Position numbers and translations under genes: made by a program. Source: Tubulanus polymorphus (lineage: Eukaryota; Animalia; Nemertea). Taken from it: DNA of 64,000 nt. Under the pieces are notes generated by a model that ran no database searches, had not been told where the DNA came from, and saw only the letters and a list, made by a program, of their open reading frames with translations. The stretch is from the NCBI RefSeq assembly GCF_964204645.1, contig NC_134025.1, forward strand, positions 4,030,001-4,094,000, read 5' to 3'. Of the stretch, positions 1-48,931 are shown in pieces (within the stretch, counting starts at the first letter, position 1; the number at the start of each line of letters is the position of its first letter).

Positions 1-244
1 TGGTGGTTTCATAATCCACTGCTTCGTTGTGTACATGTTCAGCAAAGAATCCGCTAGAGATTTTGACCAACAAGGACGACATTGTGAAGCTTGCACCGGA
101 GACAAAGAAGGCATTACTGTATAGATAATACTAATGACAGCCATAAATGCTACTAGACCGACAAGTAACAAGCGCAACTTATGTCCGAGTTTATCCCATT
201 CTGGAACCAACTGCCATACTTTTTCCAATAAAGTTTCCGTTTCA
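1..244 (-). CDS. Terminal exon: transmembrane helix plus KASH-like luminal peptide
   Basis: AG acceptor at 246-245. Translates ETETLLEKVWQLVPEWDKLGHKLR-LLLVGLVAFMAVISIIYTVM-PSLSPVQASQCRPCWSKSLADSLLNMYTTKQWIMKPP and runs off the window. This resembles the TM + ...PPPx end of KASH proteins. Confidence 0.85.
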
Positions 245-3200
245 CTAAAATAGGAAATAAACCATACATGATGATACAATCAACAGGGCTGCCAAACTCT
301 GAAACGTGCTATCAGTAACAAATTGTAAAACTTTTTCAGTATCATTTCATTGAAATATGGAAGAAAATATTCAAATTAATCAGTAATTGACAGTAAGAGC
401 CTCAGTAACATTTTTCATATTTCTGTATGTATTAGTCAAATCATAACAGTATTTTTTGTTATAAAATAGTAACAATTGGTACTGAAAATTAGGAACAGTT
501 GGCAGTTTTGAATAAATAGACCCAGTATACATAAAAATGATTTCTAAATGTGTGGCTGAGAGTGAAGTGTATAATTTCAAATAGGTTCACTCTTATAGTA
601 CATGTATATACTTCAACATTTCATTAATTCATTGTACATAATATATGAATTATGATTATCAGCAAAATAGAGAATACAAATAATTGGTGTTTAATCCAAT
701 TTTGGAGTTGCTTGGGTTCGGATATAATAAGGCTGTAAAACCTACGAATCAATTTTCTGAATTATCACAAATTACTTACAATTCTTCATCTTCTTCATCT
801 GGCAAATCATTCAGATCCATTAATTCTTCGAGTCCTTCACCAAATGCTGCCTGTTGCTCTCTAAACCCGTTCAAATCTTGTGATAATCCAGTACGCATAC
901 CCTGTTCAAACCTGTTGGCAAAATACATTTGTTATAGTTCTTACTATCTTAACTTTCCATTTCAATTTGGTCCTCTAGACTCTTACCCTTTTTGGAATAT
1001 CTGCTCCTTTTCTTCAGGGCCCCAATCAACAGTTTTCTTCTCATTAGCATTCGCATCTTTATTACAATCTGATAAAGGTTTCTCAACACTGAATTCGATA
1101 ACATATTCAAAATTTGTTAGTAAAACTTTTGTCAGATTTACCAAGCGTTTTTACAGTGGGTATAATAGTCATCACGAAAACATACCTTGGTTTAACTTGC
1201 AGGTTCTTTACATTTTCAGGTGTCTGTTTTTGGTCCTTTTGTTCCAATGAACATGTCCTTGCTGTTGTACTAAACGTGGGTTGCAGTCTACTCCTGGGGT
1301 CCTGAAAGTATCACAGCAAATTTTCAAAACTGACAAAAATCATAATACATGATTTATCTTAGTGTGTATAGATACTCAATGAATAAATAATACAACAGAG
1401 TGAAATTTGACAATCATAGCATGAATGAAACCTTACATGTAACACTTATAGAGCATGGTTTCCCGAGCAGAATTTATAAGATAAAACAGCGGAAAATTAC
1501 ATGTAATAGGAAGAATAATCAGCTAATCTATTACAAATCATAACATTCACCCTTCAGAAGCCTGTATTTGAAGTGACTAGGACATTTTCAAAATTCTTTC
1601 TCAAAAAGACTCTCTCAATTGTCAGAAGCGCGAAAGATATTCAGTTTGATTGATTGAGTAAATCAACAGCATACATCATTGATCATTGGAAAAAATAAAA
1701 GATTTCATCCAAGGAGACCTAACGGGCAGGTCCATAAAACCGGTGAGAAGGATAAGAGTAAGACAGTTGATATTGTATAAAGACACAACACTGACATGTC
1801 TTACCTCGACACTAGGTAATACTGAGCCCCGCCTCATTCCAATTTGCTGGCATTCAATAGAGAAAAACAAAAAAAGATAAGGCACCCATCACAAAATAAA
1901 TGCCCCAATCACCAAAACCTTATTTCAATACGTTCTGTAGTAAGCGTTCCCGCGGAAACTGTCAAGGTGATAAGAAAAGTATCCTTAAGCTCCATTCAAA
2001 TCTCTAAATTGTGAAAATACCAGTAAGCATCTTGAATATTACATGAACTAAACATTTGAAAAGAGGAAATAAATCACAGGGTAGTCTGAAAGATTCGTAG
2101 GAGGTAGGTATTCAGGGAAAATCCAATTAACTTATATCATATAGATGTAGTAATTTTTGATTGAGTTTAGCGGATTGTGAAACCACAGCACGAAAGGTTA
2201 ATCAAAGAGAAGCCATTGTTAATTGAAAATGATAGAGTGAATCATTGATTGATTGATCAGTGATCAGTGAGATAACATTACCGCAGAGAATCTCCGTGGC
2301 CCTCCGATCTAAAAATTCAAATTTCAACACAAAATGTACACAAAAAAAAACTAAAAGTCCCTATTGTAAATGTTATGTTACGTATCAAATATTGCATAAT
2401 CTGATCGACCCTAACTTCTTAAATGAATGTAGCGTATATTAATAATACCTTCACCTTCATATCAATGTATAATGTACACAAAATTCATGCAATATTTCAA
2501 CTGAATATACATGTATAAACAGTATTACAATTAAATTCTTCATTCGGATCTCCATCATAAATAATCTATTAACTAAAATGTGAAAAAATGATTCCAAGAT
2601 AATAAATCTGAAGATGACCAAATCCCCAAAAAATGAAGTTATAAAAACCTTTGAAAAGAAAAAAAATAAACACCTCATCGTAAAATGTGCATATATTTAA
2701 ATTGAAAACCACTCATTATCTACACATTTAGAAATTCAGAAAACACATCTACAACATGGTGGGTGGTACATGTTTTCTGATTATAATGTATTATAATATG
2801 ATCATGTGTTTCATGCACATTGAAGCCTGTAGGTATAATATGCCTGTTTACAGGAGCATACCTTTTGTACTCTCTTCAGAAGATTGATCTAATAATGAAA
2901 CATTACATAATCACATAAAGTACAATTGAATTTCTTTTTTAGGTTTTAGATTAAAGCTCTTGTTCTTTTTCAAATGGCCTCAAAGCCGAGCCGCGACAGG
3001 CACGAATATATATCCATTGTTTCCCTTAACTTACCATTGTTGATCCGCTTTGCCCAACTCCACCAAACAAGCGAGGAAATGCTGCAACACTGGCTCTACG
3101 GCGACCCATCTGTAAAAACCCAAGTAAATTCTGTAAAATCGTTACAATGTAGGCCTTAAATCTAGCATCATAATTACTACATTAGAGTTTTTGATGCCTG

Positions 3201-6200
3201 CTTTGTTAGAAGAAGCTGAAGATATTCAAAGAATTGACTTTCACACTAAATTAAATTGAATTATCATGAACAATGATGAATAGAAAATCGGCTACTATAT
3301 TCGTTTTGCTAGAATGCAACAGATTGATATTCAATCTATGTAATGAGCCCAATACCAAGCTGAATGATTTGAAATACAATGCAACAGAAAAAATAGATGC
3401 GTGAATTCCATTTACAAACAACATAAAACTGATTTATCTAAACAACTAGCTTATCAGAAAAATAAAATAATCCAAATTTCCAATACCTTCTACCCCAAAA
3501 ATGGTGCCAAATTAGCGACTACTAAAAAGTGCTCCAGTACCCACTACATAATACAAAACATAGATGACATAAGCTAGAGGTTACCTCTGTAGTGCTATTT
3601 GCTTGTTGCGGATGTGCTGGGGCCCGTAGGTGGTGATGACCCTGACTCGAGACATTCTGACAAACACAATAGGCATTGTTTTGCAGATTTATCAACAGGA
3701 AAAGACACCGATATTAAGTAAGGAATATTCTAATTATTGAAATATGATATTCCAGGTATTGGTGTCTTTCAACCCAAAAGAAGTGGTGCTTTTAGTAGAA
3801 AGATTTCGATTAAAAATGCAAACATTCATCATGAGAGCAGAAAACGCTTTTCATCTCAGAGAACAAACAATATTAGTACGCTCTACATGAATCACTTTGT
3901 TAACAAACATCATCAGAACACGACTGAAACCAATGAGAAACTGTGGAACATATAAGAAAACACTGACCTTAGCAGCACCACCAGCTACTGACATTGATCT
4001 TTTACTGAATCCTGGATGTCCATCTCCTGAAATAAGAAATATTTCTATGTGCACAATATAAGAAAATCGTATTGAAAAATCATTAATGCAACCAGAGACT
4101 GAGATGAAGACAAATATGTGGTGGTATAGCCAGGTGCCCGAAACGCACTAGAGGTGCATACAACAAATAGAAACAGAAATCATTATTCTGATTGGAAACA
4201 TGGTTCATCAGTTATGAGTTTTAATGAGCACTGGCTATCCAGCAATCACTTATCAAACTAATATAGATTAGTTCAATATAGGCCTGGATACTTCAGGAAC
4301 TCCGCAGGTTTCATTCGTCTAAGACATCGATCAATGCATATACACCTACCATAATCGGTAGAGCCAGAAGGTGGAATAATTCTGTTTTCTTGTAACAATT
4401 GTCTGAAAGAAAAACTTCGCCCTTAGATGTCGCATAATTCCAACCCACGAATCAATCAGAAATCAAAGAATGAAATGCAGACATTAAAAACCCACCTCGT
4501 TTCTTCTAGTTCTTGATCTTTACGTTCGTAGGCTTGCTTTATAGTTTCAACGTGTTGCACCATAATCTCGATAGCTCGACTTAACCGACCTTCCTGTATT
4601 AATAAGAGTAAAACTTTGATCATACGCATTACTCATTTATACTGATTGTAGCGGATAATCACGAGGCATTCAGTGATCCACTAATTACTTCTTTAAAAAT
4701 ATCGTATTTCCAATTTATCATACAGTCGGGCAATAAGGATTCTAGCTTTTAATGATGATTCACTGGACATAGATTGTTTTCGTAATCAGTGAAATATAAA
4801 AAGACATTTCATTCGCCCTCACCCAATGTATTCATAACAAATATAAAATGAACCTGAAATATGGAATTAAGTTAGTTTTTCATTAGAAAACGTTCAACAC
4901 AGAAACTGGATTAAAATGAACCATTGAATGACGTCGGTATCTCCAATGAAGAGACCTAAGTCATACTGTTTAACGGAATAAATGTTAAGTATAAATGATG
5001 ATTAAATGTTAACTATCATAATAAATGAACGCATGCAACTCCTTACAGACACCCATACTTCTATAAGCTTTGCTAATTTTGCGCATTCTATCACGCATGC
5101 AATATTCTTCAGAACTAGGTTCGGCAAATTACTGAAGTCAAGCTGAAATATAAAACAACAACTGAAAATGTGATATTCCATCATGAAGAGTCCCTGTCCA
5201 TCTAGCGGTACAGAAAATCAATAGAACTGGCATTGTATTCATGAAATTCCACCCTCTTCTGTCAAGGTTCCATGAAATTTTGATTAAACGCAATACATTG
5301 AGATTGACATGCAAGCAGTTTGCTAGAAAGTAGGATATATGTTTACCTGTTGAACAGCACCGTGTAATTCTGCTCGACTTGAAACTCTCGCCGTCGACTG
5401 TTCCAATACTTCAACATGACGCTGAACCTTAGCGAGCACTTCTCTTCCTTCTGATGTCACGCACTGTTGTCCGAGCAACTAAAATATTAGAACCATTTGC
5501 CTTAAGGCTCGAGACAGACTCTGTCTGCGAGAACTTTATACGGATAGAATTCAAAGAATAATTTCAACCGCTGCCAGAAATGTTTCACGTTCCGCCGGGT
5601 TATCACGTTAATAACTGCTCTCTGAAGTCACGTCTGATCTAAGTGGCTCATTAGAAGAGAGAGAGACAGAAAACACGAACCTTCAGAGATTCCTTCACAG
5701 ATTTCAGTTCTTTATCCACATTTTGTTCAGCCATATCTCTCGCACGTTCCTGCAGCTGGACTCTCTGATCCAGAGTCAAGCGGTCAGTTTTAAACGACAG
5801 CGAAAGCATCGCAAACTTCTCCTGAAGAGAACATAGAGTTTGAACATTTTGCTGGTTTTAATTTGTCGTGTACGTATAAAACGGTACCTCAAAGTTTAAG
5901 AGTTTGAAAGATGATAAACTGGATTCACGAGATGGGTATAGTAGTTATGACTAGTAGTTATGCGTTTTTTACAGCTGACTGCAGCCTCAGGGGATAGATT
6001 TGGTAGCTGATGTCTTATATTGATTCCGACACCCCACGGTTGTCACTGCATATACATGAATATCAAGCACGTATGAAAACTGTGGTTTTACACAAATCTA
6101 TCTATCTGCTATCTATGAACTGTTTTAGAAAGAGGTTCAGGGGTATGCATGATCGTAAAATCTGAAAACCAGTTGAAAACCTGCCTTATAGTTGATATAA

Positions 6201-9200
6201 AGGCGTTTAAACGCAGGCTTCAAAGCTGTAAGGGACCCCGACATACCTCCTGTCCGCATCTACCCCTACACAACGAAATGTGCCTTACATTTGAATATCA
6301 CTACGATTATAGATTTGAACATTATCAATAATTACCTCAAGTTCCTGTTCTGATAAGTTCTCAGCACTAAAATGAGAATAAGATATAACATATTTTCACT
6401 TTTTACCATGACCTGAGTTCACTACCTCTCAATGATTACACCTCTGTTGGGAGGCATTAAACGAAATGATGTAATATATGTGTTCGAGCATCAGTATCCG
6501 CTCCTGTAGCCATTAGTGATAGCGTTAAATAAGCTTCTTTAATAATCGATACTCGCTTTACGTAAATAGGATTCAACAAGAATTTGCTTCTGCTTCAACA
6601 ATACAATCATCAAGAAACCAAACAATTCAGAATATCATGACAAATACAACCAGTATGCCGGAGCATCCTGGAATTAGATCATGGATTTACTTTTATATAT
6701 TGAGAAAACGAAACCGGTGGTATAAATCATGATGTGAATTCATAAGAAAAAGATATACGAAACCCTACTAAATGGATTGGCTATATAATAAGCTTTCTGA
6801 CTAGATTTTATGCATTGCTAAGCCAATAAACATTTCTTTTAAAAACGGTGTTGACCCGAGTACAGATAATCTTTACGAATGTCTACAAATAAACGTCATC
6901 AGTAAGAAACGGGAGAATGAGGATCGGCAGCAGGGTAAAGAAGAGCAGCAGCCTTCACAGGAAATTAAGCTAAGAACGGTCAATGTGAACATCTCCGTGA
7001 GATAGCGAGACACGATTAACTCAGTCTCAGTAATGCATGTTCAGTTGTTGTATTTACCAATCCCACGTACGTATAATACGATTTATCTTCCCTTAAAAGG
7101 TAGACATGATTATTACGATGAAATAAAAAAAGAGTCAAATAGAGACAGAATGAAATGAGAACATCTAGTTGCATATTTATATTTACGTGTTGAATAAAAC
7201 CACAAAAAAACGGTTCTTTATTCTCAGTTATTATTACCTTCTGGATTTCATGGCTTGAAGCACGACCCGATGAAATGCCATGATAGAAACTATATAACCA
7301 GTAACCGATGAAAACAACGCTTATCCAAGAAATAACGGATGAATTCTTTCGGGTGATGTTTATCGGGTATCCAATGGAAGCGCACCGGTACCATCAACGA
7401 AAGCTGCCGATATCAATGGATTAAACCAACATCATCACCGGCTGAATCAGAGGCATCAATTTGTCGTTACTGTCGCATTAAAGTAGCTCATTTCAAGTCA
7501 AATAGTAAATGGCATAAGACTTCCCGGTATTAGCCGCTTGAAATTGACTACCGCGACTAAATGCAATTGCCGTGTGTTGGATGATTTCCGACCGGAATAC
7601 TGAGTGAAATCGAGGTACAATTCACGATCACGGACCGTTCGCTTTTTTCAACGTTTTTACTGCAAGTCCTCGAGCATATTATGTCTCGAACTTCCACAAT
7701 TTATCAGACGATTACATTCACATAGTCAACGATGATACAGACCGATCGTCACAGTAGCGTCGAATACAACCCGTAATATAACAGTGAGACGCCGCTGTGA
7801 TGTGGAAGAGAGAGAGACCTGTTGGTTGTTGAGTTACTGTGGAAATGACAATAACGACGGGTTTATATCTCTCCAGTTCCCGCGACGTAATTGCTTTACT
7901 AACTTTCAAGTTGCTTAATATTCCTCGGTATCTAATTTAGCATTGAAGATGTATATGGCAAATAAGACCGACTGCGTATCGTATCATACGCTCGAATAGA
8001 GCCAATTTCCAGTCCAAACAATATTAACCTGTTGTATACACAACCCTCCTGTATATATCGAATTCTTACCATTTCCATAAATTCATTCACTATACTTTTA
8101 TTTCATCATCTCAAACATATTTTCACTCTCGTTCAAACCAACGTTCTCCCATCGGTAGTAATGAAAGATGGATAAAGCTTCATTCCGCGTTGAAGAGATT
8201 TTCCCGCTAGATCGGGAAAAGGTCTCTTCATCAAATTACGTATGTTCAGGCGACTGTCAGGTGTTGCTTCTTTCGAAATTGATTCAGGATGCATCGGTTT
8301 GCCTGTTCTACCGATGAAATATCTCACAATTTCCCCATTCGGCGTGTTTTGCCAGCATTTGCTAATGGATGTGTGAAATGCAAGACCACAGTGATGTGAC
8401 TTGAGCCCCGAGGTTGTTGTCAAAGCTTCCAACATATGGCTCATTAGTTCACAGAATGGTAGGCGTCAATCATCGCTCCTCTCTGCTCTCAAAACCCATC
8501 ATCCACTCAATTTTACAGGAATTATTTTAGATGAGGCAAAACTTGCGATGACACATCGCCAATTGATAAGTTCTGATGACACTTGTGGGTATTTCTCCAC
8601 TTGAAACATTTCACGCTAGTGAAAATTTCAGCGCATTAAAATTGATCAATTGTCATGATTTCTTTATTAAATAAAGTTTGAACGTATACCATATACCAGT
8701 GTCAAACAAGGCAATGGATGGAGAGAACTAGAAATAAAGCTGCCATAAACAGACTAGTAAAGGTTTTATCATAAGCGCACTCGTGATGACCTTTTAGCTA
8801 ATAATCACTGGCTTAGGGCAGGCTGTAAAAACCAATACATTGCAGTAAGATTATTTCATAAATCATTCTTATGGTTAGATTGTGATGCAACTCATGAAAA
8901 TAAATAGGATGATACGAATTCACCAAAAATAACCAGCTTTCGAAAATGAAGGTGCGTAAGTGTCTTGTTGGTTTTTTATAAGCAAGCGTTATTTGGGTTA
9001 GAATTGCACGAATGTTCATTTGGGGACTACTCATTTATTACGGTTGAGCAGTGAAGGAAACCATGTTATTCGATACAAGCATCGGGTTGAATATTCTATA
9101 GGTTTCAGAACGCGCGCTCCGATATTACAACCACAAGACTAAGAATAATAAATAATCAATGAATTCTTTCTTTATTCATTTTTTATAGTGAATTTATCTC

Positions 9201-24200: not shown

Positions 24201-24722
24201 CTTCTTATAGAGGCTTAATGCAGAGAGTTGACATTATTAACTTTCATCGCTGCAGTAGAAGACAGTGGCGAGATTGTTAGATAAAAACTACCGAACGAAG
24301 TGCGCTAAAAAAACGCATGAAAATAGAGAAAATCTTCACAAAGCTGAAATGTCACAAATGAACGCTGTACGGCGGTTAACATGGAATCAATACTATTAAC
24401 CGTCAACAATCATATCAATTATGTGAGTGTGATTAATTCTGATGAATCAACTAATAGGATTTTTTGCCAGACTACATAAAACGAACATCTTATATTCGTT
24501 GCCTCTGCTAAGCCGCGCTCGGGACAAATGGGGCAATCGATTTTTGTGTCAATATCTCAAATGACGATTTTGATGCAAGCAATAAAGGTAATTTCGAAGG
24601 TGCATGCTCGGCAAACATTATGTATTTCATTGTTTCCTAAAATAACGACCCAACTTTATATGATATACAAACATTTGTGGCTTATCATAGTTGAAATCAA
24701 TGATGGCGTGAAAAATTATGGA

Positions 24723-24818
<96 letters not shown>

Positions 24819-27800
24819 GATGTAGGGAATGGAAGGAAGGTTTGATTGCAGCAATTCTGATGATGAATATTGACTGTTTCAGCCGTTCTAAGTCATCGGA
24901 GAATCAACAATGACAGCTACCGCAAACTGTAAAAACTTTAATAGGAAAAAATCAATCCAATCGAAACCGATGTACAACTTAAAGCGCAGGCTTACTGCGC
25001 AGCTTAAAATTCACAAGAGGCAGGAGATATTGTTGTAAAACCTGCAAGAGAAAAGATTATATCCATTCCAACTCATGTTTTCATTCTCTACAGCAACAGA
25101 ATCTGCTCTTTTCAATTCATTTAATCTGTATAGAATTGCGTTCGTTACTTTACTGTTATCATGAACATCGGCAAAATGAAGATTTGTCGAAAACGCGATG
25201 AAAGCCTAGACGTATCTCATTCAATTGCCTGAAAATCGGAGACTTTTTTTGGTAATATATTTCGCGATCCTAGGCTTACAGAGGAACATGCAAATCTAAT
25301 GAACTGTCAATGTTTTATCGCAGGGATGAATAGCAGCAGGACTCATTGCCCAATATACTATAGCAGATTTTCACATGGTCGATTCTACACGATACTAATG
25401 AGCTCAATATTTCCCACTGACCGTCACACATCCAATAGAATTGAGATAGACCACACAGCTCTATATCAGACAAGAGCACATGACGAAACTTCTAATAAGG
25501 CAATACTTCCAGTCTAGCTATCATTTTTCCATCAGCTACGGGTCATGTTATCAAAACATAAGCAAATCTGACAAGGTGCAAGATCAATATTTGCAGATCT
25601 TTTCCCCACAAATTGCTCGCGTACTGGACAAATTATTTAGAATCCATCAAATCTATACGACTGATAGATATGGTTTTGCAGTATCGCATAATAGATGCTA
25701 GTTTGGAGTAGCGGCTATTCTGATGTAGAATGATTACTCCGATATATCCAACTCGGGCTAGCCATTATTCACCAGTAGGTTGAGGGGCGTTGAAGACTTG
25801 TACCGGTCTACGTGGCAATGATACTTGAACATGGGATCTCTAATCAGCAGCTGAAGGTTACAACTATGGGGCTATGGCATTTCCATTTCAAGGATTGAAG
25901 CTGCTACACGCGAACGAAGTCCCTCGTCTTAAAATTTATCAATATTCCAATGATTCTATCTATTAATCGAAATTTCAGAGACAATCAAATCTATCGGCAA
26001 CAGTTTCTCAATCTCTAGTGATTTCCGTTAGAGAGAAGAGATAACTGACGAGATATGAATTGATTCATTACCATAACAAAAACCTGATGAACGTGAAGAT
26101 TAATATTGGTATTTAAACGGAGCGCTATCTGGATTCCAGTCAAACAAGTCCGTACCTAGAACGGGCGAAATTTGGAAATGGCGAAATCACGTCTCGCTAA
26201 ATTGGCTACAGATAGTTATGATTTACCCCGCAAGATGTCACCATGAGTATTTTATCCTTAAATTCATATCTAAATGATAGATTTATCATGAGTCCCTGGA
26301 TGTTAATTATCTAAAAAATTATGATGATTGCAGTTTATCATATATCTGAACACATCGATCTATTGTTAATTCTGGGACATCTTCAAAGAGATTAGAATGG
26401 ATATATACTCTGTAAACAACACACCCAACAGACAGATAGATAATAATCTGTTAGCCTATACAGCAATACAGAAATTATATGATATCTGAAAACTACATGT
26501 ATATTAATCAGGTTGATGATGATTGGGGAGCATCGGAGTGACAGGTAGATGTCATTTCAATTGATTTCATACTGCAAAGTACGTTTTAGAACGGACCTGG
26601 ATTTAGTTTCTGTCCACACAGACAGATTTAGCCCATTCCAAAATTTGGAACAGACCTGGATCGGTATTCTAGGTCGCTCTAGGAACGGACTTATTTGGAA
26701 CAGATTTTTTGCTAGTGTGCACGCTTGGTCCGTATCAAATCGGAACGGGCCAAATTTAGACCATTATTAATAACATATGGGCACGTACCTTATAATACAT
26801 TCAGGTACAAATATAATCTGAAATACCGAGAAACTTATCGCCTTGTGTACGGTTTGACCAATATTTCTTATAGAGACAATCCATAAATCATGTTACCAGA
26901 GAAAGTTTTGAAACTGCCATTGACAACGTAATGATGGATGTGATGTGATGGTGGAATATAATGATAAAGCACATAAAGCTTTATACAATCAGTCTAACAA
27001 CTTAGAACAAAAGCAAATATCGCGGAAACTTGTGGCTTTTAGCGAAAATATATAACTGTCATCTACTACAACATTGGACATGATTCTGCTTGTAATGAAC
27101 AACATCGTAACCTGACCTGTCTTCTCCATTTGTTAATTCTCTGTACTTTTGGTCTGTTGTTAAGTCATCAGGCTGCCTATGATGAAGATAATAATATGAG
27201 AAACTTCCAAAAATCTGATGGAATCAAACTTTGAACGTATGTTTTGACGTCGTCAATGTAATTCTTCCTTCAGGAGAGAAGTTATCTTAAAAATCAACTC
27301 ATGTTCGCCCCGTTCTGTCACTTTCTATATCGCGATGTGAACATTTCATAACAGGAAATGTGAAAACGGGAAGCTTATTGAAGTTTTAATCCAAAAGGAT
27401 CAAACTAACAAACGATTTTTATTGGCTGAATTTTCTAAAAGACTAAGGGAGCAGGTCCCGCTTAATCCTGGTCAGTTTAATCTAGATTTCGACCTTATTC
27501 TGATGCTACATCTATCTATGATCCATCTATAGATACATATGTGTAATGCAGATTTTTTCATTGGACCCAAATGATCCGGTTTAAGCAGGGTATACCATAA
27601 ATAGTAGTACATACATAGTACGTAGTTCGAAATGAAGTGCTCCGTAAAACTCCACTGTGAAAAATGGTCTCTTCATTGACTAAGGCTAACTAAGCTAAAT
27701 TGAATCAGTTTCCCCTACTTGACAGATAGTCCCTCTGCCCTGTGATAATCACTATAAGTTCAAAAATACTTTCAACTATTGATGTCAAATGAGGTTGCCA

Positions 27801-30800
27801 TAGCAACTGCTCGCTGTGATGGCAAAAACTTGACGGAAGAAAAAATTATTTCCGAACACAAAACTTCTTTCCGATATCAAGTGTATTTTTAGTTATGTCT
27901 AATAATCTCTTAGCTAAACAATAGGTGTCAAGCTTTATGCTATTGTGCATCTATAGAGATATGATTCGTTTTGTTCGATGCAAAAATCTGGTGATCACTT
28001 ATTACGGTACGAGTATAATTTCTACAAATGAATTATGCATTGGAAGTGAATTTTCTCACATCAGAAATACCAAAGGCAAATGAAATGAAATGCTAGTGAT
28101 TTCTATAGGTGAGTACAGCCGTTGTCTAAGCTATTTTCATTCAAATTATCAATTCATGCAAGAGGTGTTTAAAATAACATTCATGTAGTATTTACCCGAA
28201 GTCATCGACGGATTGATGAATTTGATCAAATACTTAACCACGGGTTTTCTTATCGGTAGCACCTACAGCCAACTAACTATCTACATCATTTCTGAATCCC
28301 CACAGATAGACGATTGCCTCACAATAATCAAAACTACATCAACCCATGATCAAATTAATCAGGAAATATACCACAATATAGCACATGAGCATTAGCTCGC
28401 TGGTTTTTTTTCTATATCATTGCCCGTGGAAAGATTACTCTTCTCCTCACAAATACTAGTCCCATTAGACATCACGCTACCGAACTAAATAAGAGGAAAT
28501 GACACACACGTTCGTTCTTTCGCGGCGGAGAGAAAACCGGAAATATTTCGACGAAAATAAGAGAAAAATAACAGCCGCATCTTACCCGATATACTGTCGT
28601 GATACGCAGTTTCCCATGTTTTCAGCACAACTCACTGCAGACCCATCATTACAGTAATCCGAGGAGCATCGTCGTCATACACCGTGGATGTTCACATCAT
28701 CTTCACTCGGTAACGACTGGGATACCTTTTTCTCGGGAGCGGAATCTGATCGCGAAGTAGGATTATACAGAAATGCCCGATAAATGTTACTCGATATATT
28801 CTCGATACGGCGGCGGCGTCGTACACGCGAAAATAACGTAGCCGTTTATTCGCAACTTCACGAGTTTAATCGGTCAGCAAACGCTTTTTAAATCCGGTCG
28901 AGTCCGAATTCATCGGTAAATCACTCGATCGAGCAGATTTTTATGAATGCGACTGTAACAGTGATACCTCTCCTCGTCAACGCACACTACAGCACACAAC
29001 ATTGACAGTGGCTGAGAACACTTTGAACTTATCAAACACACTGACACAGTGGCAGGGCTCATCTGGACATTACTGCAATAAGTTCTCATTAATACCTACT
29101 AATCACAGTTTTTGGTGCATCGGAATAGAACTGAACAAAACACGTATCAAATGAGGATGCATTTTGCGCGAAATATGAGGTTAATTTATTTCAAATTTAT
29201 CAATGAGCGCACTGCCTGGATCAGACACACGGTACCTGCCACATAATTAATTAACTACAAAGCCCGAGTTGATGTGTGATCAGTACATGAAGCGAGAGAG
29301 AAAGAGAGAGAGAATGAGAAAGCGTGAGGGGGAGAGAGGACATTATTAACCTGATGTGATCGAGAAAATGGAACGAAATAGAACGCAACCTGTGAACTCA
29401 TAAACTGGATCGAATAAAAAAACACAATTACAGTTGTAATTACTGCGTGAGATGTGATTGCACCGGTTAATTCTAGTTTTCAGGAAATGACTCTAAATCC
29501 CTGCGGATCCTTTTTAACCCTATGAATAATGCTAATGTAATCATTTACGTAAGTAGACTCCGTATACTGTCTGCTATGCCAGTGGAAATGCTTCCGACTT
29601 AGTTACATTTTTCTATACGTACCTAAAAGCGAGTCGCTGGTATATGGAATCAGAAGAAGTTATCAGACAGCCGAGAGCCAATACGACAATAAAGTCTGTA
29701 TTCGACCTCCTGTTATTAGATGTGACATGTAGGAAATCGTCTCGGGGAGAGACATACATGCCATGAGGCAAATGACAATGCTCTATGAACTCCACAAGCA
29801 TTTCGAGATACGCCTGCAGCTATTTCGTAAGACAAGAGTACAATTTGATGAAGCTTTGATAAAATTAGATCACGCAAGAGTTGCAATCATCACGATTCTA
29901 ATAACCTAAACTAACATCGTAAAATATTGTTTATCTAAGAAATATATTTATCGTAAGAAATTATCGACCATATTATCCCAACCGTTTCATAAGCCCGAAC
30001 ATGTATGATTCGTTCGGATACAAGTTAGACTTGACAAGGCTAAGAGGGCTTAGAGGTTAAATGAATGTATAAACTATGCCTTTAAGCCCCCTCCCCCGAC
30101 CTGACATTTTTTTCCAACATTTTTTTCCAACATACGAGGCGAACTGAATATTCAATGAGGTATCGAGGGATCATCTGTATCTATGCGAAAATGAGCAAAA
30201 GTAGAGATCAATAATCGACTAGATTGCGCATAACATTTGACAGACGTTATCCGATTTATCAATTTCAACGGAGTAAGAATTTAATGAGAGGGATGATCAC
30301 TTACAATTCACCGGGCAACCGAGGAGACAACAGTCTGACATGCAATACCGATATCACTGGCGAATGTATCTAAAGAATCAACTGTATGTATGTAGGCCAT
30401 TAACGAAATCTCCAATGAACGCTTTGCGAGGTTGAATGTGAAATGGCGTGCCTTCGAACGAAGCTACCAAAATATTTTCACAGCAGACTGTCTGCTCAAA
30501 TGATCTATAAATGATTCGATGTCGAATGTGTTTGCGGTCACGGAAGTTGTCTGTCATTGTCTATCAAAGCTGAATTGTGTGATTCATGAAGAGAAATGTA
30601 TCTATGAACACACCGTCTCCCCGCTGGTCTACTGGTTGCATGAAAGAAACCAATAACATCGCATTCGAAAAGTAAATTGTGGTAGAACAGAAATCGAAAA
30701 CTCTCTCTATGGTTATGCTGTTTTTTTCGATGAATACACACGCCGGTAGTTCCGTCATTATTTTATGATTGGTAATTTGCCGGCCGTGCCATTATCAACG

Positions 30801-33800
30801 AGAATGATAGCGAAACCAGGTGAAATACCACGTAAAAAGAGCGCCGTATTATTACTTCGCTTTAATGATAAAACATGATGATGTCTAAAGATTTGTTGAT
30901 GTGTTTTGGATCTAAAAAATCTTCTTTTCTAATTTAACACGCATATTTACTCAATTATATACCTCTCCCTCAATCACTGATTTACTGCTTATTAATCATG
31001 GCTGAATTCTGCAGCTAATTATCTTTGCCGAAAGTCAGACATCTCGATTTTAACGATTTAATGACAATGACAAATGGTGCATATTTTTATTGACGCATCA
31101 AACACGATATGCTAGCAGTTTTTGTATCTGTTGCTTTGTGACATTCGGATCATGGTTCCCCGAGACTAACCCTGTTGGATTGTTCCTTCGATTAAATGTC
31201 TACCATTTAGCTTTTTACTTCATCATACAAGTATTCATGGGGGTATCAGTATCGGAATCAAAAAGAATTTGACTCAATCATGATGGAAAATACCTTTTGG
31301 GCTATCAAAAACTTTAACAATACGCATGTATAAAGACTGGTTAGAGATTCATCTATATTGAATATCAGTTATACTACCTGCGAAGTTGACAGATGTGCTG
31401 ATGTAGACGCCATCTTTCCTGCACTGCTTGATCCTGTAATTTGTGTAATCTGTCTTTCTCTGAATTCAAACACTCCTCATTTGCCTCCAACTAAAATATA
31501 ATATAACTCTACTACATAAAGCTATCAGCCTCTTAATGCAATTAAGCAGTGCAATAGTACCTTTTGTTTAAGAGAATTTTTTTCTTGTTCTTCATTATTT
31601 AGCTTTTGACACAACTGAACGAGATTCTCCTCAAATGTATCACTCGTTAGGAATGAAGCATCATCCAGATGTTCTCTGAGCATTGTGTCGTAATGCTCAT
31701 TCATACATTTACCCTGATCTGAAATATTCACAAATTATACATACATTTCTATTCCGATTCGATAAGTATAAAAGTACTCAAAGTATTCTCAAAGCACGAT
31801 GTCATGAACTGCATCGATATCTAGGTGCTATCAAAGGGAAAACTGTCTTTTTTCATAACCGGTTTGCACGAAATCTATGCATTGTTTAGTCATGAAACTT
31901 GGCATGTACACAGAGGAATAGTTTCTCATGGTTACGACAATAATCTTATTTGGGTCCAGGGTCTATTTTCCGAATTCGAATTGTGGGGTGTTTGGCTTTG
32001 AGATTCAATTACAATATGGTCATATAGACGTCCATGATCACAATAATAAATTTCTTAACTGAGCCAGTGGTATCCCTATATGGGGCACCGTGAACCAGTC
32101 ACTCAGTACTGGGTGAACAAATTTCTAAACAAATATCTAGTGTTATGCATAGTAGGATCCTGGAATAAAAGGGCATGTCGAGAAAGGGTTAGACACTCTT
32201 CAGGCTTCTGGGTAAAATTGCTTGAGTTTTAATTGGAAAGGCCAATCAGGATTTTGTCACACTGACATTTTAAGTCATCAAGATTTAGGAAGGGTGTATT
32301 CCGACTCTCTTTGGAATCCACCTTAACCCAGCCTTGCATTTTCTGCTTAGCTCCAGTGAAGACTCATCAATTTTCCGACCCACCGAAGATAGGTATTCTG
32401 CAAGTACATATATACTAGTATCATTTGAGCTTGGATCAAAATGATCTTTTGTGCCCGGTTTCATAGACTCAGTATCAAAGTTTCCCCCAGGGGTAATCTT
32501 CAACGTGGGTGACAACCATTATAGAAACAATAAAAAACGATAGTAATATCGTCATATTTCCCACATCTTAGAAACTCAGCCCTGTGTAATTCTCATCCAC
32601 TACACAGAAAATGTACTTACATTTCATTTTCTTCATTGCACGCGCTAACTTTTGAACCCTGGAAAACGTAATGAAATGTATCGTGTAATAATAATTTTAT
32701 GTAAGCTTAACCTGTAATCAATTTTTATTTTGCCAGTATGAACCATATGGTTTGTACACATATGGCTTAGACATCTGATCCAGTTGAACAGTCTTCGCAG
32801 TAAAATATGTCTATACAACTACATATATAGACAAAGACATAGACATATAAATGCTAAGACACTTGCCATTTATCTGACTCTTGTTTATCGCTCGCAAGAT
32901 TTGAAAATCTTTCGGTGAAGTTTTTCATCTCTTCATCGAGTTTTATCTTGAAGATTTCGAACGTCTTATCTGAATCTACCTGCGGAAAGCCATCGATCAA
33001 TTTGTTGAGTTCATCTAATATCGATGATTTCCGTTCGTTAAACTGACTGGCCTAAAATAAAACAGAAATTTCTTATATGGAGTCTTCAAACGTTGACATT
33101 TTGAACCTGTTGGGTTATCATCATTACCAATTTTGTACTAAGCTTGCTCGATTCATCAGCTATCAACGCTTTCAACAAGTCATCGGGAGGATCATCGAAA
33201 ACTACAGAATCATCCAGTAATTTGGCGAATGAAACTTTATCACATAACGGGGACGGAAGTGTGGCTTCATCAGTAAATATCTATAAAATACACAAATATT
33301 TATGTTGAAACTGTAGATTATTTAGCGATTAAATCATATTTTGAAGTGGTTTGAATCTTACCACATTTTTTATTTCAGACAGCAATGAAGGTATTGCAGA
33401 TTGGACGGGAGTGCTGACAGCTGCTGGACCTGTTGCTAAATGGACGGCTTTTACAGGAATCAATGATTGATCTGCATCGAACTCATTGTCTTCATCACTC
33501 ATTTCAGGTGCAATCATTTCCATAGACAGTGATTTACTATTAAAATATCAAATGCTTCTCAGTACATTTTCTACAAAATAACATCAGCAAATATTCTGAA
33601 TGGATGAATTTGAAATACCTGCTCATATCTTGCCGCGCTTCCATGAGCTGTTCTTCTAAGTAGTTTTTCTCTGAATTCAGTGCCTTGAGATAAAAATGAA
33701 TAAAATTTTGGTTAAAATCCATTTCAGAGAAATTACGGATTTGGTACTTAGGAAACATGAACTTACTTCATTTTGACGGCTCAATTCATGGACGACTTGT

Positions 33801-36018
33801 TCTAAATCTTCATAAAGCATAGTTTTCTAAAACGAAACGTTAAAAACAATCTGGCATATAGTAATTACAAGGACTCTGAAGAAGAATGTGACTCAGCGTT
33901 AATCACCTCAGCCATTTTAGTATCATGTTCTTCTTTCAACACTTCAGCTTCTTCACACCTTTCCTGTAAATTTTACCCAATATCTCATCGTAGTATACAT
34001 TTCTATAGATGATGAATAAAATAAGTGAATACAGAATACAAGCGGAATACCTTATATTCAACAAGAGATGACTGAAGTTCTTTCTGTTGATCAAAAGCAG
34101 ATTCTAATTCTTCATTCATCGTACGTAGCTGAAATAAGATTCATATTCATTAAATGAACCCGCCAAATTACCCTTCTCTTTACAAAAAGTGAGAAATATA
34201 AAACAAAACCTTTTCTATGTTCTCTTGTTCTTTGGAGATAAGACGAAGATTCTCTTTTTCACTTTCTCGAAGTTTATTTTGCACGTGCTGAAGATTCTCT
34301 TCAAGAGAGGTAATATTTGACTTCAGTTCTTCATTTTCTTTGCGTACACTCTGTAGTTTATCTTGTAAGTTGTTCAGACTGAAAAAACGTATATAATGCG
34401 TTACATTTAAGAGTTGAATTGATACTAACAAGAACTAATGAAAGAACAAACCTCCAGAGCTTTTTCTGAAAATCTTCAACATCAGCGGTTAAACGTGAAA
34501 CATTATCCTCGCTTGATTCAAGTTGTTTTCGAAGTTTCAGATTTTCTTCACAAACCTTTCGATGCTGTGTCTCAAAAAAATCAAGTCTATTTTGTAATTC
34601 TGTGCTGTCCCTAAAGAGATATTTTTCAAATTTCAAGAACCGGCAATGGAATATTGTAATTAAACTAACAGGTTTTTGTTATCGTAATCAACTTACGTTT
34701 CCATAATAAACCTATCTCCTGCTGCTCCTGATGCTTCTAAACTCCCATATGTAAAGTTAACAATATCAGATCTTTCCAGCAAACCTGAATAAAAAATCTT
34801 ACATGAAATGCTTTTTCGAGATGTTTACCTTTTTCAACTATAAAATAAAAACCTGTTTTCCATTGTGAAAGATAAAAAAAAAACACATTGAAAATTCATG
34901 AATGCAGCGAGGTAAAATTCTATACACATGTACAAGTCAAAATACGAACTGATATTTCAGACTGAAGCAAGAGTGGTTTAAGCGCTTACTTTCATTAGAT
35001 TTCTTCAATTCACATTTGATCGGTGAAAGATGATGAACACGCGGCCTTCGCTTGATCACATTTCCACAAGGAGATGAAATAGCGTTGGCTAACGACGTCA
35101 TAGCATTCGAGCTCAATGAGGCCTCATCATCGCTTTCACAACTCGAACCACTATTACATGAAACAAAAAAAATGTAAATTCATAGAATGAAAAATGCGTG
35201 TTTCAATCCAATAACTGCTAATTCCAGATTCAACAGTCTTAAGTACATTCACATAAATTGAATAATACAAATTATAATTCCATTATAATTATGTAGAAGT
35301 GGTAGTACAAATAATAGTAGTTAGATGCATAAGCCAATTCTGCCCTTTCATCCTCACAGTTCTCTTCGATCATTACGCAAGTGCAGTGTTTCTGGAGTTA
35401 CTTCTAGACCTTAAAAATTTGCATGTAGCTTGTAGCGAAACTATAGTGTTACCTCAGTGACTTAGAGAACGGCATATCTTCATACCATTCCAGGAATCCC
35501 TTTCTGTAAACAAATATATCGATCTCGACATCGTTATCATCTGGATCCAGGTTCAGTTTTAATCCATCGTAATCATGAACACAACACGCCTACCAACAAA
35601 TAATAAAACAGTATTACAAGCTTTTAATATTCATCACTAAGGGTGCATAGTTAGAAACACTTACATCGCAATAGTGACGCAATCTATCTATAATACTGGA
35701 AACTCGTACAAGTCCAGTATTTTCTTCATCACACATAAGAAACAACTCATCGATTTTATCTACATCGGATGGTGATAATAGTTTACACGATGTTCCGCCG
35801 TCATCCTCAAATTTTGGACACAATTCTAACATCGGCGACTTAGATTGTAATACGGGCGACTCTGATCGCGGCGACTCCAAATGAGGTGACTCCGAAAAGT
35901 AGATATCCGATTGGGGTGACGGTAAAACCGATGAGTCCGAGTGGTATATATCCGATTGGGGCGACGGCAGGATTGGCGACTCTGAGCGAGATATCTCCAA
36001 TTCAGCCGACTCTGACAT
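1..36018 (-). CDS. LRMP: LRMP/IRAG + KASH5-like nuclear-envelope/ER tail-anchored protein (EF-hand-like, coiled coils, MRVI1 domain, TM, KASH-like tail); 41 coding exons, >=1958 aa, 3' end truncated by the window
   Basis: Phase-consistent exon chain (minus): 36018-35665, 35589-35453, 35150-34990, 34784-34697, 34610-34452, 34378-34210, 34128-34051, 33963-33907, 33826-33767, 33683-33619, 33536-33362, 33280-33128, 33051-32867, 32658-32621, 31718-31561, 31490-31378, 27176-27112, 20433-20363, 19500-19396, 19228-19118, 18153-18108, 17356-16696, 15509-15390, 15151-15032, 14331-13779, 13450-13300, 13226-13069, 10818-10708, 10483-10287, 6366-6336, 5821-5681, 5478-5347, 4593-4496, 4402-4350, 4026-3968, 3656-3585, 3109-3035, 1301-1186, 1088-987, 911-780, 244-1. 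Total 5874 nt with no stops. MRVI1/LRMP-type sequence EKFAMLSLSFKTDRLTLDQRVQLQERARDMAEQN...TARVSSRAELHGAVQQEGRLSRAIEIMVQHVE. The gene symbol is the closest family label only. Confidence 0.85.
4350..6366 (-). CDS. Exons encoding the MRVI1 (IRAG/LRMP) coiled-coil domain
   Basis: Five exons (6366-6336, 5821-5681, 5478-5347, 4593-4496, 4402-4350) translate to AENLSEQELEEKFAMLSLSFKTD...ETIKQAYERKDQELEETRQLLQENR, matching the recalled IRAG1/IRAG2 core. Confidence 0.9.
7238..7281 (-). CDS. Candidate alternative first exon for a short isoform (MAFHRVVLQAMKSR/S)
   Basis: ATG at 7281 with an upstream in-frame TAA; donor AG|GTAAT. Phase 2 matches acceptor 6366 and reads into the MRVI1 domain. Confidence 0.55.
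8133..8307 (-). CDS. Candidate alternative terminal exon (KASH-less isoform ending ...DGRTLV*)
   Basis: Acceptor TTTCATCGGTAG|A at 8307 is phase-compatible with donor 10287. 57 open codons to TGA at 8135-8133; minus-strand AATAAA at 8102-8097. Confidence 0.45.
11618..12013 (-). CDS. Candidate alternative first exon (MSRMVRSEISDYEDY...EPRTDQ)
   Basis: 132-codon ATG-started open frame ending in a strong CAG|GTAAG donor. Phase 0 fits acceptor 10818. Confidence 0.65.
16408..16680. repeat. Intronic minisatellite, 16-bp subunits / 32-bp higher-order unit
   Basis: Repeated GGTACCAGTACTGTCA-GGTACCCGTGCTGTGG units; homogeneous on the right, degenerate on the left. Confidence 0.95.
24727..24814. repeat. 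(TA)44 microsatellite
   Basis: Perfect TA run. Confidence 0.98.
26576..26792. mobile_element. Degenerate non-autonomous element (MITE-like) with internal repeats
   Basis: Ends AAAGTACGT...ACGTACCTTA are imperfectly inverted. Internal recurring GAACGG, GACCTGGAT and AAATTTGGAA motifs; a related fragment lies at ~26145-26178. Confidence 0.35.
27794..27807. promoter_or_regulatory. Perfect RFX X-box (GTTGCCATAGCAAC)
   Basis: Exact match to the canonical 14-bp X-box, in the intron between the MGNC first exon and exon 27176-27112. Confidence 0.65.
28586..28617 (-). CDS. Alternative first exon encoding MGNCVSRQYI(G), an N-myristoylation/palmitoylation-type N-terminus
   Basis: AAACATGG Kozak context, upstream in-frame TGA, donor GG|GTAAG. 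Phase 2 matches acceptor 27176, giving MGNCVSRQYIGQPDDLTT... Confidence 0.7.
32659..32866 (-). other. Non-canonical GC-AG intron
   Basis: Donor TG|GCAAGT, acceptor TTTTCCAG. This donor preserves the frame (DK-W-VQKLARAMKKMK); the nearby GT at CAA|GTGTCT does not. Confidence 0.75.
35453..36018 (-). CDS. First coding exons: Ser-Pro repeat region plus KASH5-type EF-hand-like domain
   Basis: IDELFLMCDEENTGLVRVSSIIDRLRHYCD / LKLNLDPDDNDVEIDIFVYRKGFLEW resembles the CCDC155/KASH5 EF-hand_9 pattern (FxxCDxxxTGxV...LDP...D...W). Confidence 0.8.
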
Positions 36019-37318
36019 TTCTACAAAATGGTTAAAAAATCTTTTATAGCCCTGCATCATAACATACATGAAGACATGACCAGTATAGCCTACCGGTGTA
36101 CATAGACATAGCAAAATAATCTCATGTCTGCATTTACATTCAGAAATCAGAAGTGTGCTTTAAATGAAACAAGGCCGTTAATTTTGACAATAAGTGTAAC
36201 ACCTGATCATAGGATTTCCTATTCAGATAAAATGATTATATTTTAGTAAAACGAAGCAATCTACGAGTACAAAATAAATGGTTTTCAATGTATTACTCGG
36301 GTAACAACTGTGACATACCTGAAAAATGCTCTCTACGCAGTTAGCATGAAAAATATCATATAACCAGCCATGAAAACCTGCAATGAATATAAGTTCAATA
36401 TTTGTAGAAAAAAATAAGCAATAGGCTAATATGGAAGATAATAATTCTGAGCGAAAACCTATTAAGGCCTAGAAAGCATTGAACCAACCATTAAACCACA
36501 ACCTAAAAATCGAAAAATAATGTTATTATGTCTGAAAGGTTGCCTTGTGATAATACGAATTAATTTGACGCAATACTTTTCCTAAATTTTCCAATTTTAC
36601 ACAGTGAGAAATATACCAACTGTATATTTATCCGGTGATAACATGGTATTGCAAGAATACAGTCTATGTATATAATCCATATATGACAGGTTGTTATAAC
36701 CCGGTAAATCAGCCACAATATCGTCGCTCTATGGCGTTGATGTAATATTAGTCCACATCGAAATTACATTTCAATCAAAGGCTTTCAGTTTTTCTAACCA
36801 AATGCTCAGTCATTTGGAATATGCAATCGCATTTCTTGTGCAAACACCGACTGGGGTCGGACATGTGTTCAAACACTAAATTAGATTTATAGATATTTTA
36901 TGCCAGGAAATGGAATCATTTAAATGCATTCAGTTGATCAGTTTAGTGTATTGTGTATAAGCACAGAACAAATAAATTAGTCATTAGCAATTAGTAATCA
37001 ATCATGTTTGCTGAGAACCACTAATTAACCCATGCTTGCAAAAATGGTATTATCCGTTCACCACGTTTGAGTGTGGTTATCGTTCTATGGTATTTATCAG
37101 TCTGAATACAAGTGTGGCCTAGCACCTGTGACTCCAAGCTTAATCAGGCTAATTGATGAAGAAGCATATGTTTTAATTGGTTGATTAAGCTTCGGAATAT
37201 GTTGAACTAGAACAAAATATAAGTTGTTGATAGTTACATGTATTGAAATAAACTGAGAGAACTGGTCAAGTCTTGCAGGTAAATAGGCAGTGGTAGGGGA
37301 AGGAAGACTGTTTAGCCA

Positions 37319-39964: not shown

Positions 39965-47602
<7,638 letters not shown>

Positions 47603-48894: not shown

Positions 48895-48931
<37 letters not shown>

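What the first reader, a model, noticed from the sequence alone, without database searches (positions are those of the whole stretch)
1..36018. One gene uniting KASH5, IRAG1 and IRAG2/LRMP hallmarks
Seen: a continuous spliced ORF with a KASH5-like EF-hand and coiled coil (GSLEASG...ELQNRLDFFETQHRKVCEENLKLRKQLESSEDNVSRL), a long low-complexity middle, the MRVI1 domain, IRAG1-like RSMS and RRRAS sites, and TM + KASH-like tail. Known: in mammals KASH5 is a dynein-activating LINC protein, IRAG1 links PKG to IP3 receptors, and IRAG2/LRMP has a KASH-like tail; zebrafish lrmp (futile cycle) has a long form. Inference: this is the pre-duplication ancestral architecture, a single protein potentially coupling dynein pulling on the nucleus with IP3R Ca2+ release and cGMP/cAMP signalling.
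Basis: partly seen in the sequence, partly recalled or inferred. Interest (0 to 1): 0.8.

Follow-up and report, generated by a model that had tools for sequence, protein, structure and literature searches.

The report
Worm gene uniting KASH5, IRAG1, IRAG2
This ribbon-worm gene carries, in one modelled membrane protein of about 2,000 residues, the motor-binding, calcium-channel-regulating and nuclear-envelope parts that vertebrates spread over three genes, a layout shared by many invertebrates, so it likely shows the ancestral form of the family, although none of its predicted partners has been tested.

Summary
Real, and most likely one gene. A 45-exon minus-strand model (36018 to the window edge) reads 2,002 residues without a stop. 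The organism is the nemertean Tubulanus polymorphus. RefSeq cuts the locus in two (630 aa KASH_CCD; 1,345 aa MRVI1) at a GC-AG intron. One spliced contig crosses that cut, and the model aligns end to end with a 2,061-aa Lineus protein. The 10.2-kb intron after 31378 was not seen spliced here. The fused layout is common: 22 of 34 MRVI1 hits, plus Hydra. Zebrafish Futile cycle and Horn 2013 already give the KASH5+LRMP ancestor, placed in fish; the scan noted arthropod and sea-squirt copies before. The RSMS/RRRAS pair is family-wide, not IRAG1-specific. Added here: three segments shared with one fish IRAG1 and with 0 of 12 vertebrate long LRMPs, one likely the PKG dock. An N-terminal tree places invertebrates outside KASH5+LRMP; the C-terminal tree is unresolved. 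A candidate acylated MGNC first exon would drop the dynein half. The KASH tail is degenerate. Likely an ER/nuclear-envelope dynein adaptor plus IP3R regulator; coupling is untested.

The parts
1..36018 (-). Whole gene model, 45 exons, 2,002 aa open; last codon and stop lie beyond base 1
   Evidence: annotated halves P0002 and P0001; Lineus single HSP
35453..36018 (-). Exons 1-2: Ser/Pro-rich leader and EF-hand pair (aa 83-156)
   Evidence: EF-hand_9 E 7.5e-5, below cutoff; AF2 domain pLDDT 87.7; generic EF-hand matches Z 6-7
33515..34784 (-). Exons 4-11: GSLEA motif and 204-residue coiled-coil helix (aa 246-449; KASH_CCD aa 259-435)
33368..33388 (-). Spindly-like motif SLLSEI (aa 493-499); the Spindly consensus used is recalled
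   Evidence: a loose S/P-L-x-x-E-L/I pattern was found in the first 900 aa of 25 of 27 family members, mostly at the matching place; short helix 494-503
32659..32866 (-). GC-AG intron (exon 13 to 14) where RefSeq splits the gene
   Evidence: spliced contig X2 record 3; donor read
31378..32658 (-). Exons 14-16: bridging coiled-coil region, start of annotated P0001; high-copy repeat in intron 14
28586..28617 (-). Candidate alternative first exon MGNCVSRQYI(G), phase-2 GTAAGA donor matching exon 16's phase; myristoyl/palmitoyl-like start (inferred)
   Evidence: 0 of 300 Markov-simulated introns gave a phase-2 MGxxxS/T exon with Cys, 4 of 300 without the Cys rule; CpG 27 per 400 nt vs mean 13; not seen spliced
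27117..27176 (-). Optional exon 17 (phase 2/2), unconfirmed
   Evidence: absent from P0001; an X2 contig covers it unspliced
18108..21197 (-). Exons 18-22: invertebrate-conserved middle box (aa 745-870)
   Evidence: 51% to Lineus; 20 of 28 invertebrate proteins, 0 of 12 long LRMP
13069..17356 (-). Exons 23-28: low-complexity Ser/Asn/Pro-rich middle
13300..13450 (-). Exon 27, box A: IRAG1-like acidic helix plus basic cluster; likely the PKG docking segment (identity with bovine aa 152-184 recalled)
10287..10818 (-). Exons 29-30: IRAG1-like boxes B and C before the coiled coil
   Evidence: IRAG1 E 4.2e-10 and 5.3e-5; 0 of 12 long LRMP
4496..6366 (-). Exons 31-34: MRVI1 coiled-coil core (IP3R-binding region in vertebrate IRAG1/2)
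3035..4026 (-). Exons 36-38: KRSMS (4000) and RRRAS (3103) basophilic kinase sites
115..171 (-). Single transmembrane helix (about aa 1946-1964; Kyte-Doolittle 2.66)
1..114 (-). Luminal tail, about 39 aa, ending KPP(T): degenerate KASH-like

Best explanation
This locus is most likely a single nemertean gene, co-orthologous to vertebrate KASH5, IRAG1 and IRAG2/LRMP, whose long product is predicted to be a tail-anchored ER/outer-nuclear-membrane protein that would act as a dynein-activating adaptor through its N-terminal half and as a kinase-gated IP3-receptor regulator through its C-terminal half. Shown: exon chain, domains, one spliced contig across the annotation split, family distribution, N-terminal tree. 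Inferred from vertebrate paralogues: (1) a dimer whose EF-hand pair grips dynein LIC helix 1 while the 204-residue coiled coil and Spindly-like motif engage dynactin, moving nuclei or ER in meiosis and the zygote (about 0.7); (2) the MRVI1 coiled coil binds IP3R (0.7); (3) PKG or PKA phosphorylates KRSMS/RRRAS and tunes Ca2+ release (0.6), with box A docking PKG (0.4); (4) the KPPT tail binds SUN, perhaps weakly (0.5). The two jobs are likely split partly by isoform: a predicted short form starting at the MGNC exon drops the dynein half and adds an N-acyl anchor (0.5). Vertebrate duplicates then lost complementary parts: KASH5 the C-half, IRAG1 the dynein half, long LRMP boxes A-C.
For: Open 2,002-aa chain. 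Spliced contig over the GC-AG intron. Lineus P0003 carries all three Pfam domains and aligns 77-1968. 22 of 34 MRVI1 hits also carry the N-module. Fused forms named from Hydra, Hydractinia, Ptychodera, a crinoid and lungfish. A 1,711-aa three-domain protein lies on one 7,356-nt Logan contig in the scallop cluster. KASH5 residues whose mutation most impairs dynein binding, L77/F97/M101 (PMC9242646), map to L128/Y146/F150, and the fue residue V54 (PMC10071310) maps to V106. Invertebrate-only profiles of boxes A, B, C hit Arapaima IRAG1 (E 2.8e-16, 4.2e-10, 5.3e-5), 0 of 12 long LRMP and 0 of 12 KASH5-type proteins. A nemertean-free box A profile scores the worm 23.0 bits against a best 11.3 in 200 local shuffles. 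N-tree and AU tests. Damselfly P0017 starts MGNCLS and lacks the N-module.
Against: RefSeq models two genes. The bridging contig is one record from one sample, run type not on record. The 10.2-kb junction and the MGNC exon were not seen spliced. EF-hand_9 is below cutoff, and 4 of 9 mapped LIC-contact positions are non-conservative: I36 to K, Y60 to R, R73 to D, L98 to R (positions 73 and 98 also vary in the family). The fold match is to EF-hands in general; CRACR2a-LIC ranks 21st at E 0.19. The tail lacks PPPX and the W-P of the family consensus: vertebrate profile -14.9 bits, against +36.0 for Ptychodera. IRAG1 is represented by one truncated fish sequence. The C-tree joins IRAG1 and LRMP at only 80-82, and alternatives are not rejected (p 0.27, 0.21). 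Box A is in only 9 of 28 invertebrate proteins: none of the molluscs or arthropods, and 0 of 4 cnidarian-type. The damselfly match downstream of MGNC is weak (E 0.11).
Confidence: 0.62

Rival explanations
1. Two separate genes as annotated: a soluble 630-aa KASH5-like adaptor and a 1,345-aa IRAG-like membrane protein; the joining contig is rare read-through.
For: RefSeq gives two proteins. The 630-aa form uses the same GC donor and a nearby acceptor to reach a stop (read by eye), so it could be a real minor isoform. No full-length molecule was seen.
Against: In-frame spliced contig across the split. The annotated downstream protein starts at an internal Met inside exon 14. The 630-aa product has no membrane anchor. 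One-piece orthologue in Lineus and in 22 of 34 hits.
Confidence: 0.07
2. One gene, but the functional division is at the 10.2-kb intron: most transcripts start at the MGNC exon (IRAG-like), and the dynein half is joined only in germ cells, so the two jobs never act together.
For: Phase-compatible MGNC exon with a strong donor and raised CpG. Introns 1-13 and 15 are 70-302 nt, then 4-10 kb. 12 of 34 hits lack the N-module. Mammalian KASH5 is meiosis-specific (PMC9242646).
Against: No RNA cover of the MGNC exon was seen, which is no proof either way. Long fused isoforms dominate the listed annotated clusters of other species. This reading is compatible with the best explanation and differs only in degree.
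Confidence: 0.2
3. The worm protein is an ER-resident IP3R/kinase scaffold whose EF-hand and KASH tail have decayed, so it no longer links dynein to the LINC complex.
For: Sub-cutoff EF-hand with K88 and R112 at hydrophobic positions; long branch, 0.89, in the N-tree; degenerate tail; three cnidarian-type tails lack terminal prolines.
Against: Invariant EF-hand core kept (F93, G102, V104, L128, W153); confident fold; intact 204-residue helix and Spindly-like motif; tail length and terminal PPx kept, and 7 of 5,000 tail shuffles scored as high.
Confidence: 0.11

Closest known systems
Zebrafish Futile cycle (Fue, long Lrmp) and vertebrate long LRMP
   Same: EF-hand + KASH_CCD + MRVI1 + TM + KASH-like tail in one chain (PMC3787381 passages; lungfish P0126).
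   Different: The worm is about 2,000 aa against 1,270-1,560. It keeps IRAG1-like boxes A-C, a middle box and a pre-TM box found in 0 of 12 long LRMPs. The tail is more degenerate. Zebrafish Fue itself was not among my identified sequences.
KASH5 / CCDC155
   Same: EF-hand pair, coiled coil of about 190-200 aa, Spindly-like motif, tail anchor with terminal prolines; key hydrophobic LIC-pocket positions kept.
   Different: KASH5 has no MRVI1 half. The worm falls outside the KASH5 clade (p-AU 0.0003), and four pocket positions are changed.
IRAG1 / MRVI1
   Same: MRVI1 coiled coil, RSMS and RRRxS sites, and boxes A-C shared with Arapaima IRAG1.
   Different: The fish IRAG1 lacks the EF-hand/KASH_CCD module. 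Its stable partner PKGI-beta is a specific isoform, and whether worms have an equivalent was not tested.
IRAG2 / LRMP / Jaw1 (short mammalian form)
   Same: MRVI1 coiled coil, kinase-site pair, 39-residue luminal domain with partial PPPX (PMC10298018; worm about 39).
   Different: IRAG2 lacks the PKG docking site and the dynein module. The short mammalian sequence was not compared directly.
Auto-annotated invertebrate 'IRAG2-like / LRMP-like' proteins (Lineus LOC135488832, scallop, abalone, termite, starfish, Hydractinia)
   Same: Same architecture; the worm is sister to Lineus in both trees.
   Different: Box A was found only in nemerteans, hemichordates and echinoderms. No functional study turned up in my searches.

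Membership tests
Fue/long-LRMP type (KASH5+MRVI1) | EF-hand + KASH_CCD and MRVI1 domains in one gene | tested here: met
   the 31378-21197 junction rests on annotation and homology
Fue/long-LRMP type (KASH5+MRVI1) | One full-length transcript or protein | tested here: inconclusive
   only short contigs in this species; one-contig ORFs in scallop and crustacean clusters
KASH5-type dynein activating adaptor | EF-hand pair fold | tested here: met
   (Z 6-7, rmsd 3-4, 70-80 aligned; generic EF-hands); Pfam EF-hand_9 below cutoff
KASH5-type dynein activating adaptor | LIC-pocket residues | tested here: inconclusive
   5 of 9 kept or hydrophobic, including the three most critical; 4 changed
KASH5-type dynein activating adaptor | Long coiled coil followed by Spindly-like motif | tested here: met
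   (consensus recalled; PMC9242646 reports a putative motif at this place)
KASH5-type dynein activating adaptor | Binds LIC and activates dynein-dynactin | not testable with these tools
   needs biochemistry; no LIC sequence was on hand for a complex prediction
KASH5 orthologue in the strict sense | Groups with the KASH5 clade | tested here: not met
   p-AU 0.0003; co-orthologue of both paralogues
KASH-domain proteins | Single C-terminal TM with short luminal tail | tested here: met
KASH-domain proteins | Terminal PPPX and Pfam KASH match | tested here: not met
   ends KPPT; no Pfam family on the last exon or a KASH hit on P0001. 10 of 12 vertebrate long-LRMP-group tails listed also have only two terminal prolines
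KASH-domain proteins | SUN-dependent outer nuclear membrane localisation | not testable with these tools
   experiment needed
IRAG (MRVI1) family | MRVI1 coiled-coil domain | tested here: met
   E 8.1e-50
IRAG (MRVI1) family | Paired basophilic kinase sites after the coiled coil | tested here: met
   spacing 38 aa with exon 37, 14 without, against 13 in human IRAG1
IRAG1 specifically | PKGI-beta docking segment (bovine aa 152-184) | tested here: inconclusive
   box A is homologous to a basic-cluster segment of one fish IRAG1; that this is the mapped dock is recalled, and searches gave no sequence to confirm it
IRAG1 specifically | Groups with IRAG1 in the MRVI1 tree | tested here: inconclusive
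   one IRAG1 sequence
IRAG (MRVI1) family | Binds IP3R and changes Ca2+ release | not testable with these tools
   experiment needed

The most novel reading that the evidence does not exclude
The last common bilaterian ancestor had one membrane protein that was at once a dynein adaptor, a SUN-binding tail and a PKG-docking IP3R regulator, so it could drag IP3R-rich ER or nuclear envelope along microtubules while cGMP gated the Ca2+ it released. Nemerteans and ambulacrarians still have the complete version, protostomes switch it with an N-acylated MGNC short isoform, and vertebrate KASH5, IRAG1 and IRAG2 are its complementary fragments. It would also be the missing meiotic dynein-LINC adaptor of most invertebrates, with the EF-hand+MRVI1 fusion already present in cnidarians.
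Probability: 0.3. Interest if true: 0.75.

Novelty: new variant of a known kind. Interest (0 to 1): 0.5.

Why it matters
Reviews list KASH5 and LRMP as vertebrate KASH proteins (PMC3777164 passages), and the published ancestor is a fish gene (PMC3787381). The telomere adaptors TERB1/TERB2/MAJIN go back to early metazoans (PMC7227075 passages), but their cytoplasmic dynein partner outside vertebrates was not named in the passages I saw. This family is a direct candidate. Finding IRAG1-only segments in the same chain extends the split from two genes to three and makes a clear subfunctionalisation case. It also corrects a mis-split RefSeq locus. Nemertean oocytes are a classic system for ER clustering and IP3-driven Ca2+ oscillations (recalled, not searched), so the coupling idea can be tested. 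Interest is held down because the architecture is known from Fue and is common in automatic annotations.

Tried and rejected
No whole genome was held, so paralogue count, SUN, PKG isoforms and the terminal codon could not be checked directly. No RNA holder was listed; run X5 laid nothing; X1 behaves as DNA, and X3 and X4 cover introns, so none of them informs on splicing. X2 gave no cover of exon 16 or the MGNC exon, which is no evidence either way. My first model used a GT donor at 32861; the contig supports the GC donor. Rejected: that the main break lies at 31-28.6 kb; that RSMS/RRRAS mark IRAG1. PDB sequence searches gave 0 hits for P0002 and P0001 and only four unrelated hits for alignment A2. 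Foldseek on the 630-aa model had no match at E 0.001 or better. The Atlas returned only chordate-dominated MRVI1 clusters. Profiles of the kinase-site segments did not separate IRAG1 from LRMP (P1 no hits, P2 E 0.25). The ORF 12013-11618 and exon 17 had no homologue among 202 held proteins. No complex was predicted. Lindeman and Pelegri 2012 was not held and may discuss invertebrate homologues. Tree rows left out: N-tree, 5 of 59 without the N-module, plus 3 long rows for the AU tests; C-tree, 4 of 49 without MRVI1, plus 1 long row.
Full report
Observation. Reading the three frames gave a chain of 45 exons from ATG 36018 to base 1. It is open for 2,002 codons, with canonical splice sites and one GC donor. 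A single transmembrane helix lies near the end. The final residue and stop are outside the window.

Identity and annotation. Single-exon searches hit two proteins at 100%. P0002 (630 aa, XP_074663015.1) is labelled Tubulanus polymorphus, a palaeonemertean. It matches my exons 1-13 for 613 residues. P0001 (1,345 aa) is the exact suffix of my model without exons 17 and 41, starts at an internal Met in exon 14, and joins 31378 to 21197. Pfam on these halves gives KASH_CCD E 5.7e-18, EF-hand_9 E 7.5e-5 (below cutoff) and MRVI1 E 8.1e-50.

One gene or two. Run X1 covers 24900-31918 and 32402-37000 at flat depth near 40, which supports the assembly around a high-copy repeat. Run X2 gives spliced contigs. 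One of 289 nt (depth 6.4) joins exons 12, 13, 14 and 15 in frame through the 208-nt GC-AG intron. It is one contig from one sample. The 10.2-kb intron was not seen spliced. The model aligns to Lineus longissimus P0003 (2,061 aa, all three domains) in one HSP over residues 77-1968 at 36.6%, colinear on both sides of both junctions (the exon 14-16 piece alone is weak, E 0.009). I put one gene at about 0.9.

Distribution. Of 34 other MRVI1 hits, 21 carry EF-hand_9 or KASH_CCD in the precomputed table and 22 hit my N-module profile: nemertean, chiton, bivalves, gastropods, termite, tick, crustaceans, starfish. The search with P0002 found 68 proteins; scans and look-ups add fused forms from Hydra, Hydractinia, Ptychodera, a crinoid and lungfish. 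A 1,711-aa three-domain protein sits on one 7,356-nt Logan contig. The architecture is thus the usual invertebrate state and appears to predate bilaterians.

Trees. In the N-module tree (54 rows, quick IQ-TREE, cnidarian root) long LRMP plus lamprey (97) and KASH5-type proteins (99) are sisters (96), with invertebrates outside. Nemerteans with either clade are rejected. The KASH5 label rests on architecture and on P0163 matching all nine residues numbered in PMC9242646; most vertebrate rows are unnamed. The MRVI1 tree (45 rows) joins the one IRAG1 to long LRMP at only 80-82 and rejects no alternative.

What is IRAG1-like. PMC10298018 (passages and section 2.1) shows the kinase-site pair in both IRAG1 and IRAG2 and names the PKGI-beta dock (aa 152-184, basic clusters) as the part IRAG2 lacks. 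A segment of Arapaima IRAG1 with such a basic cluster hits hemichordate and echinoderm proteins and Lineus. A profile built without nemerteans finds worm exon 27 at 23.0 bits, against a best 11.3 in 200 local shuffles. Profiles built from invertebrates alone for boxes A, B and C find IRAG1 at E 2.8e-16, 4.2e-10 and 5.3e-5, and 0 of 12 long LRMP, 0 of 12 KASH5-type and 0 of 4 cnidarian-type proteins. Box A is in 9 of 28 invertebrate proteins, B in 20, C in 22. That box A is the mapped PKG dock is recalled, not confirmed, and only one IRAG1 was available.

Dynein half. AlphaFold gives an EF-hand pair, a continuous helix 246-449 and a short helix over the SLLSEI motif. The isolated domain folds at pLDDT 87.7 and matches EF-hands generally. 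Positions 77, 97, 101 and the fue valine are kept or hydrophobic; 36, 60, 73 and 98 are not (PMC9242646 and PMC10071310 passages). KASH5's EF-hand does not bind calcium, so a Ca2+ switch on dynein binding should not be assumed here.

Tail. About 39 luminal residues ending KPPT, with Y-T and PP in register with the LRMP consensus but W-P and the beta-strand Leu lost. It scores -14.9 bits on a vertebrate profile, yet ranks 2 of 1,326 of its own 20-mers, and 7 of 5,000 shuffles reach it. It is KASH-like but not a strict KASH.

Candidate short isoform. An ATG exon at 28617 (MGNCVS..., GTAAGA donor) has the same phase as exon 16. It is the only such exon in the intron; 12 of 300 simulated introns gave one in any phase, 4 in phase 2, and 0 with the Cys. 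The criteria were set after seeing it. Damselfly P0017 starts MGNCLS, lacks the N-module and shows a weak match (E 0.11) to the middle box just downstream. No RNA confirms the exon.

Known and new. Horn et al. 2013 (PMC3787381, passages) state that Fue/Lrmp holds both KASH5 and LRMP functions and propose duplication of an ancestral fish gene with loss of 5' or 3' exons. Ten searches listed no paper on the invertebrate family or on IRAG1 segments in it; the library lacks most subscription papers, Lindeman and Pelegri 2012 was not held, and no supplements were read. PMC3777164, PMC7227075, PMC13522668 and PMC13224763 were seen as passages only. Earlier scan notes report arthropod and sea-squirt copies.

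Verdict. A real, mis-annotated member of the Fue-type family that also keeps IRAG1-only segments. The ancestral-architecture claim is well supported for KASH5 and LRMP and moderately for IRAG1. Every functional step is inferred. Interest 0.5.

Noticed in passing
window 12016-11618 (-): 132-aa open frame starting MSRMV, ending in a strong phase-0 GTAAGG donor compatible with exon 29, with no clear phase-0 acceptor; a possible third first exon. Absent from P0001, no homologue among held proteins.
   Followed up: partly
window about 32818-32767 (-): The annotated 630-aa protein uses the GC donor and a nearby acceptor to add 17 residues and stop; it could be a real soluble dynein-adaptor isoform (read by eye).
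   Followed up: no
P0133, P0132, P0127, P0140: Lamprey, amphioxus, millipede and beetle proteins have an N-module and tail anchor but no MRVI1 hit; the lamprey one groups with LRMP. A KASH5-like layout may have arisen repeatedly, or these are isoforms or annotation effects.
   Followed up: partly
P0146, P0155, P0156: Hydra, Hydractinia and one unnamed relative have the fused EF/CC/MRVI1/TM layout but no terminal prolines and none of boxes A-C; the two inspected (Hydra, Hydractinia) also lack the paired sites at the usual place.
   Followed up: partly
window 31892-32496 and 26196-26774: High-copy interspersed repeats (mean bin depth about 230-1,240 against 40 in X1); the first lies in intron 14, beside the point where the annotation splits.
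   Followed up: no
window 16435-16680; 24727-24815; about 43600-44100: 16/32-bp minisatellite just after exon 23 and long TA microsatellites.
   Followed up: no
window 41518-45333 (-): Neighbouring gene with an SH3 domain (SH3_9 E 1.5e-7); it looks like a JIP1/MAPK8IP scaffold (label recalled).
   Followed up: no
window 48559-52641 (-): Multi-exon EF-hand gene (EF-hand_7 E 8.7e-15, EF-hand_11 E 3.4e-4); EFCAB6-like (label recalled).
   Followed up: no
window 61932-63269 (+): 445-codon open frame with no Pfam family above cutoff (zf-nanos E 0.013 only).
   Followed up: no
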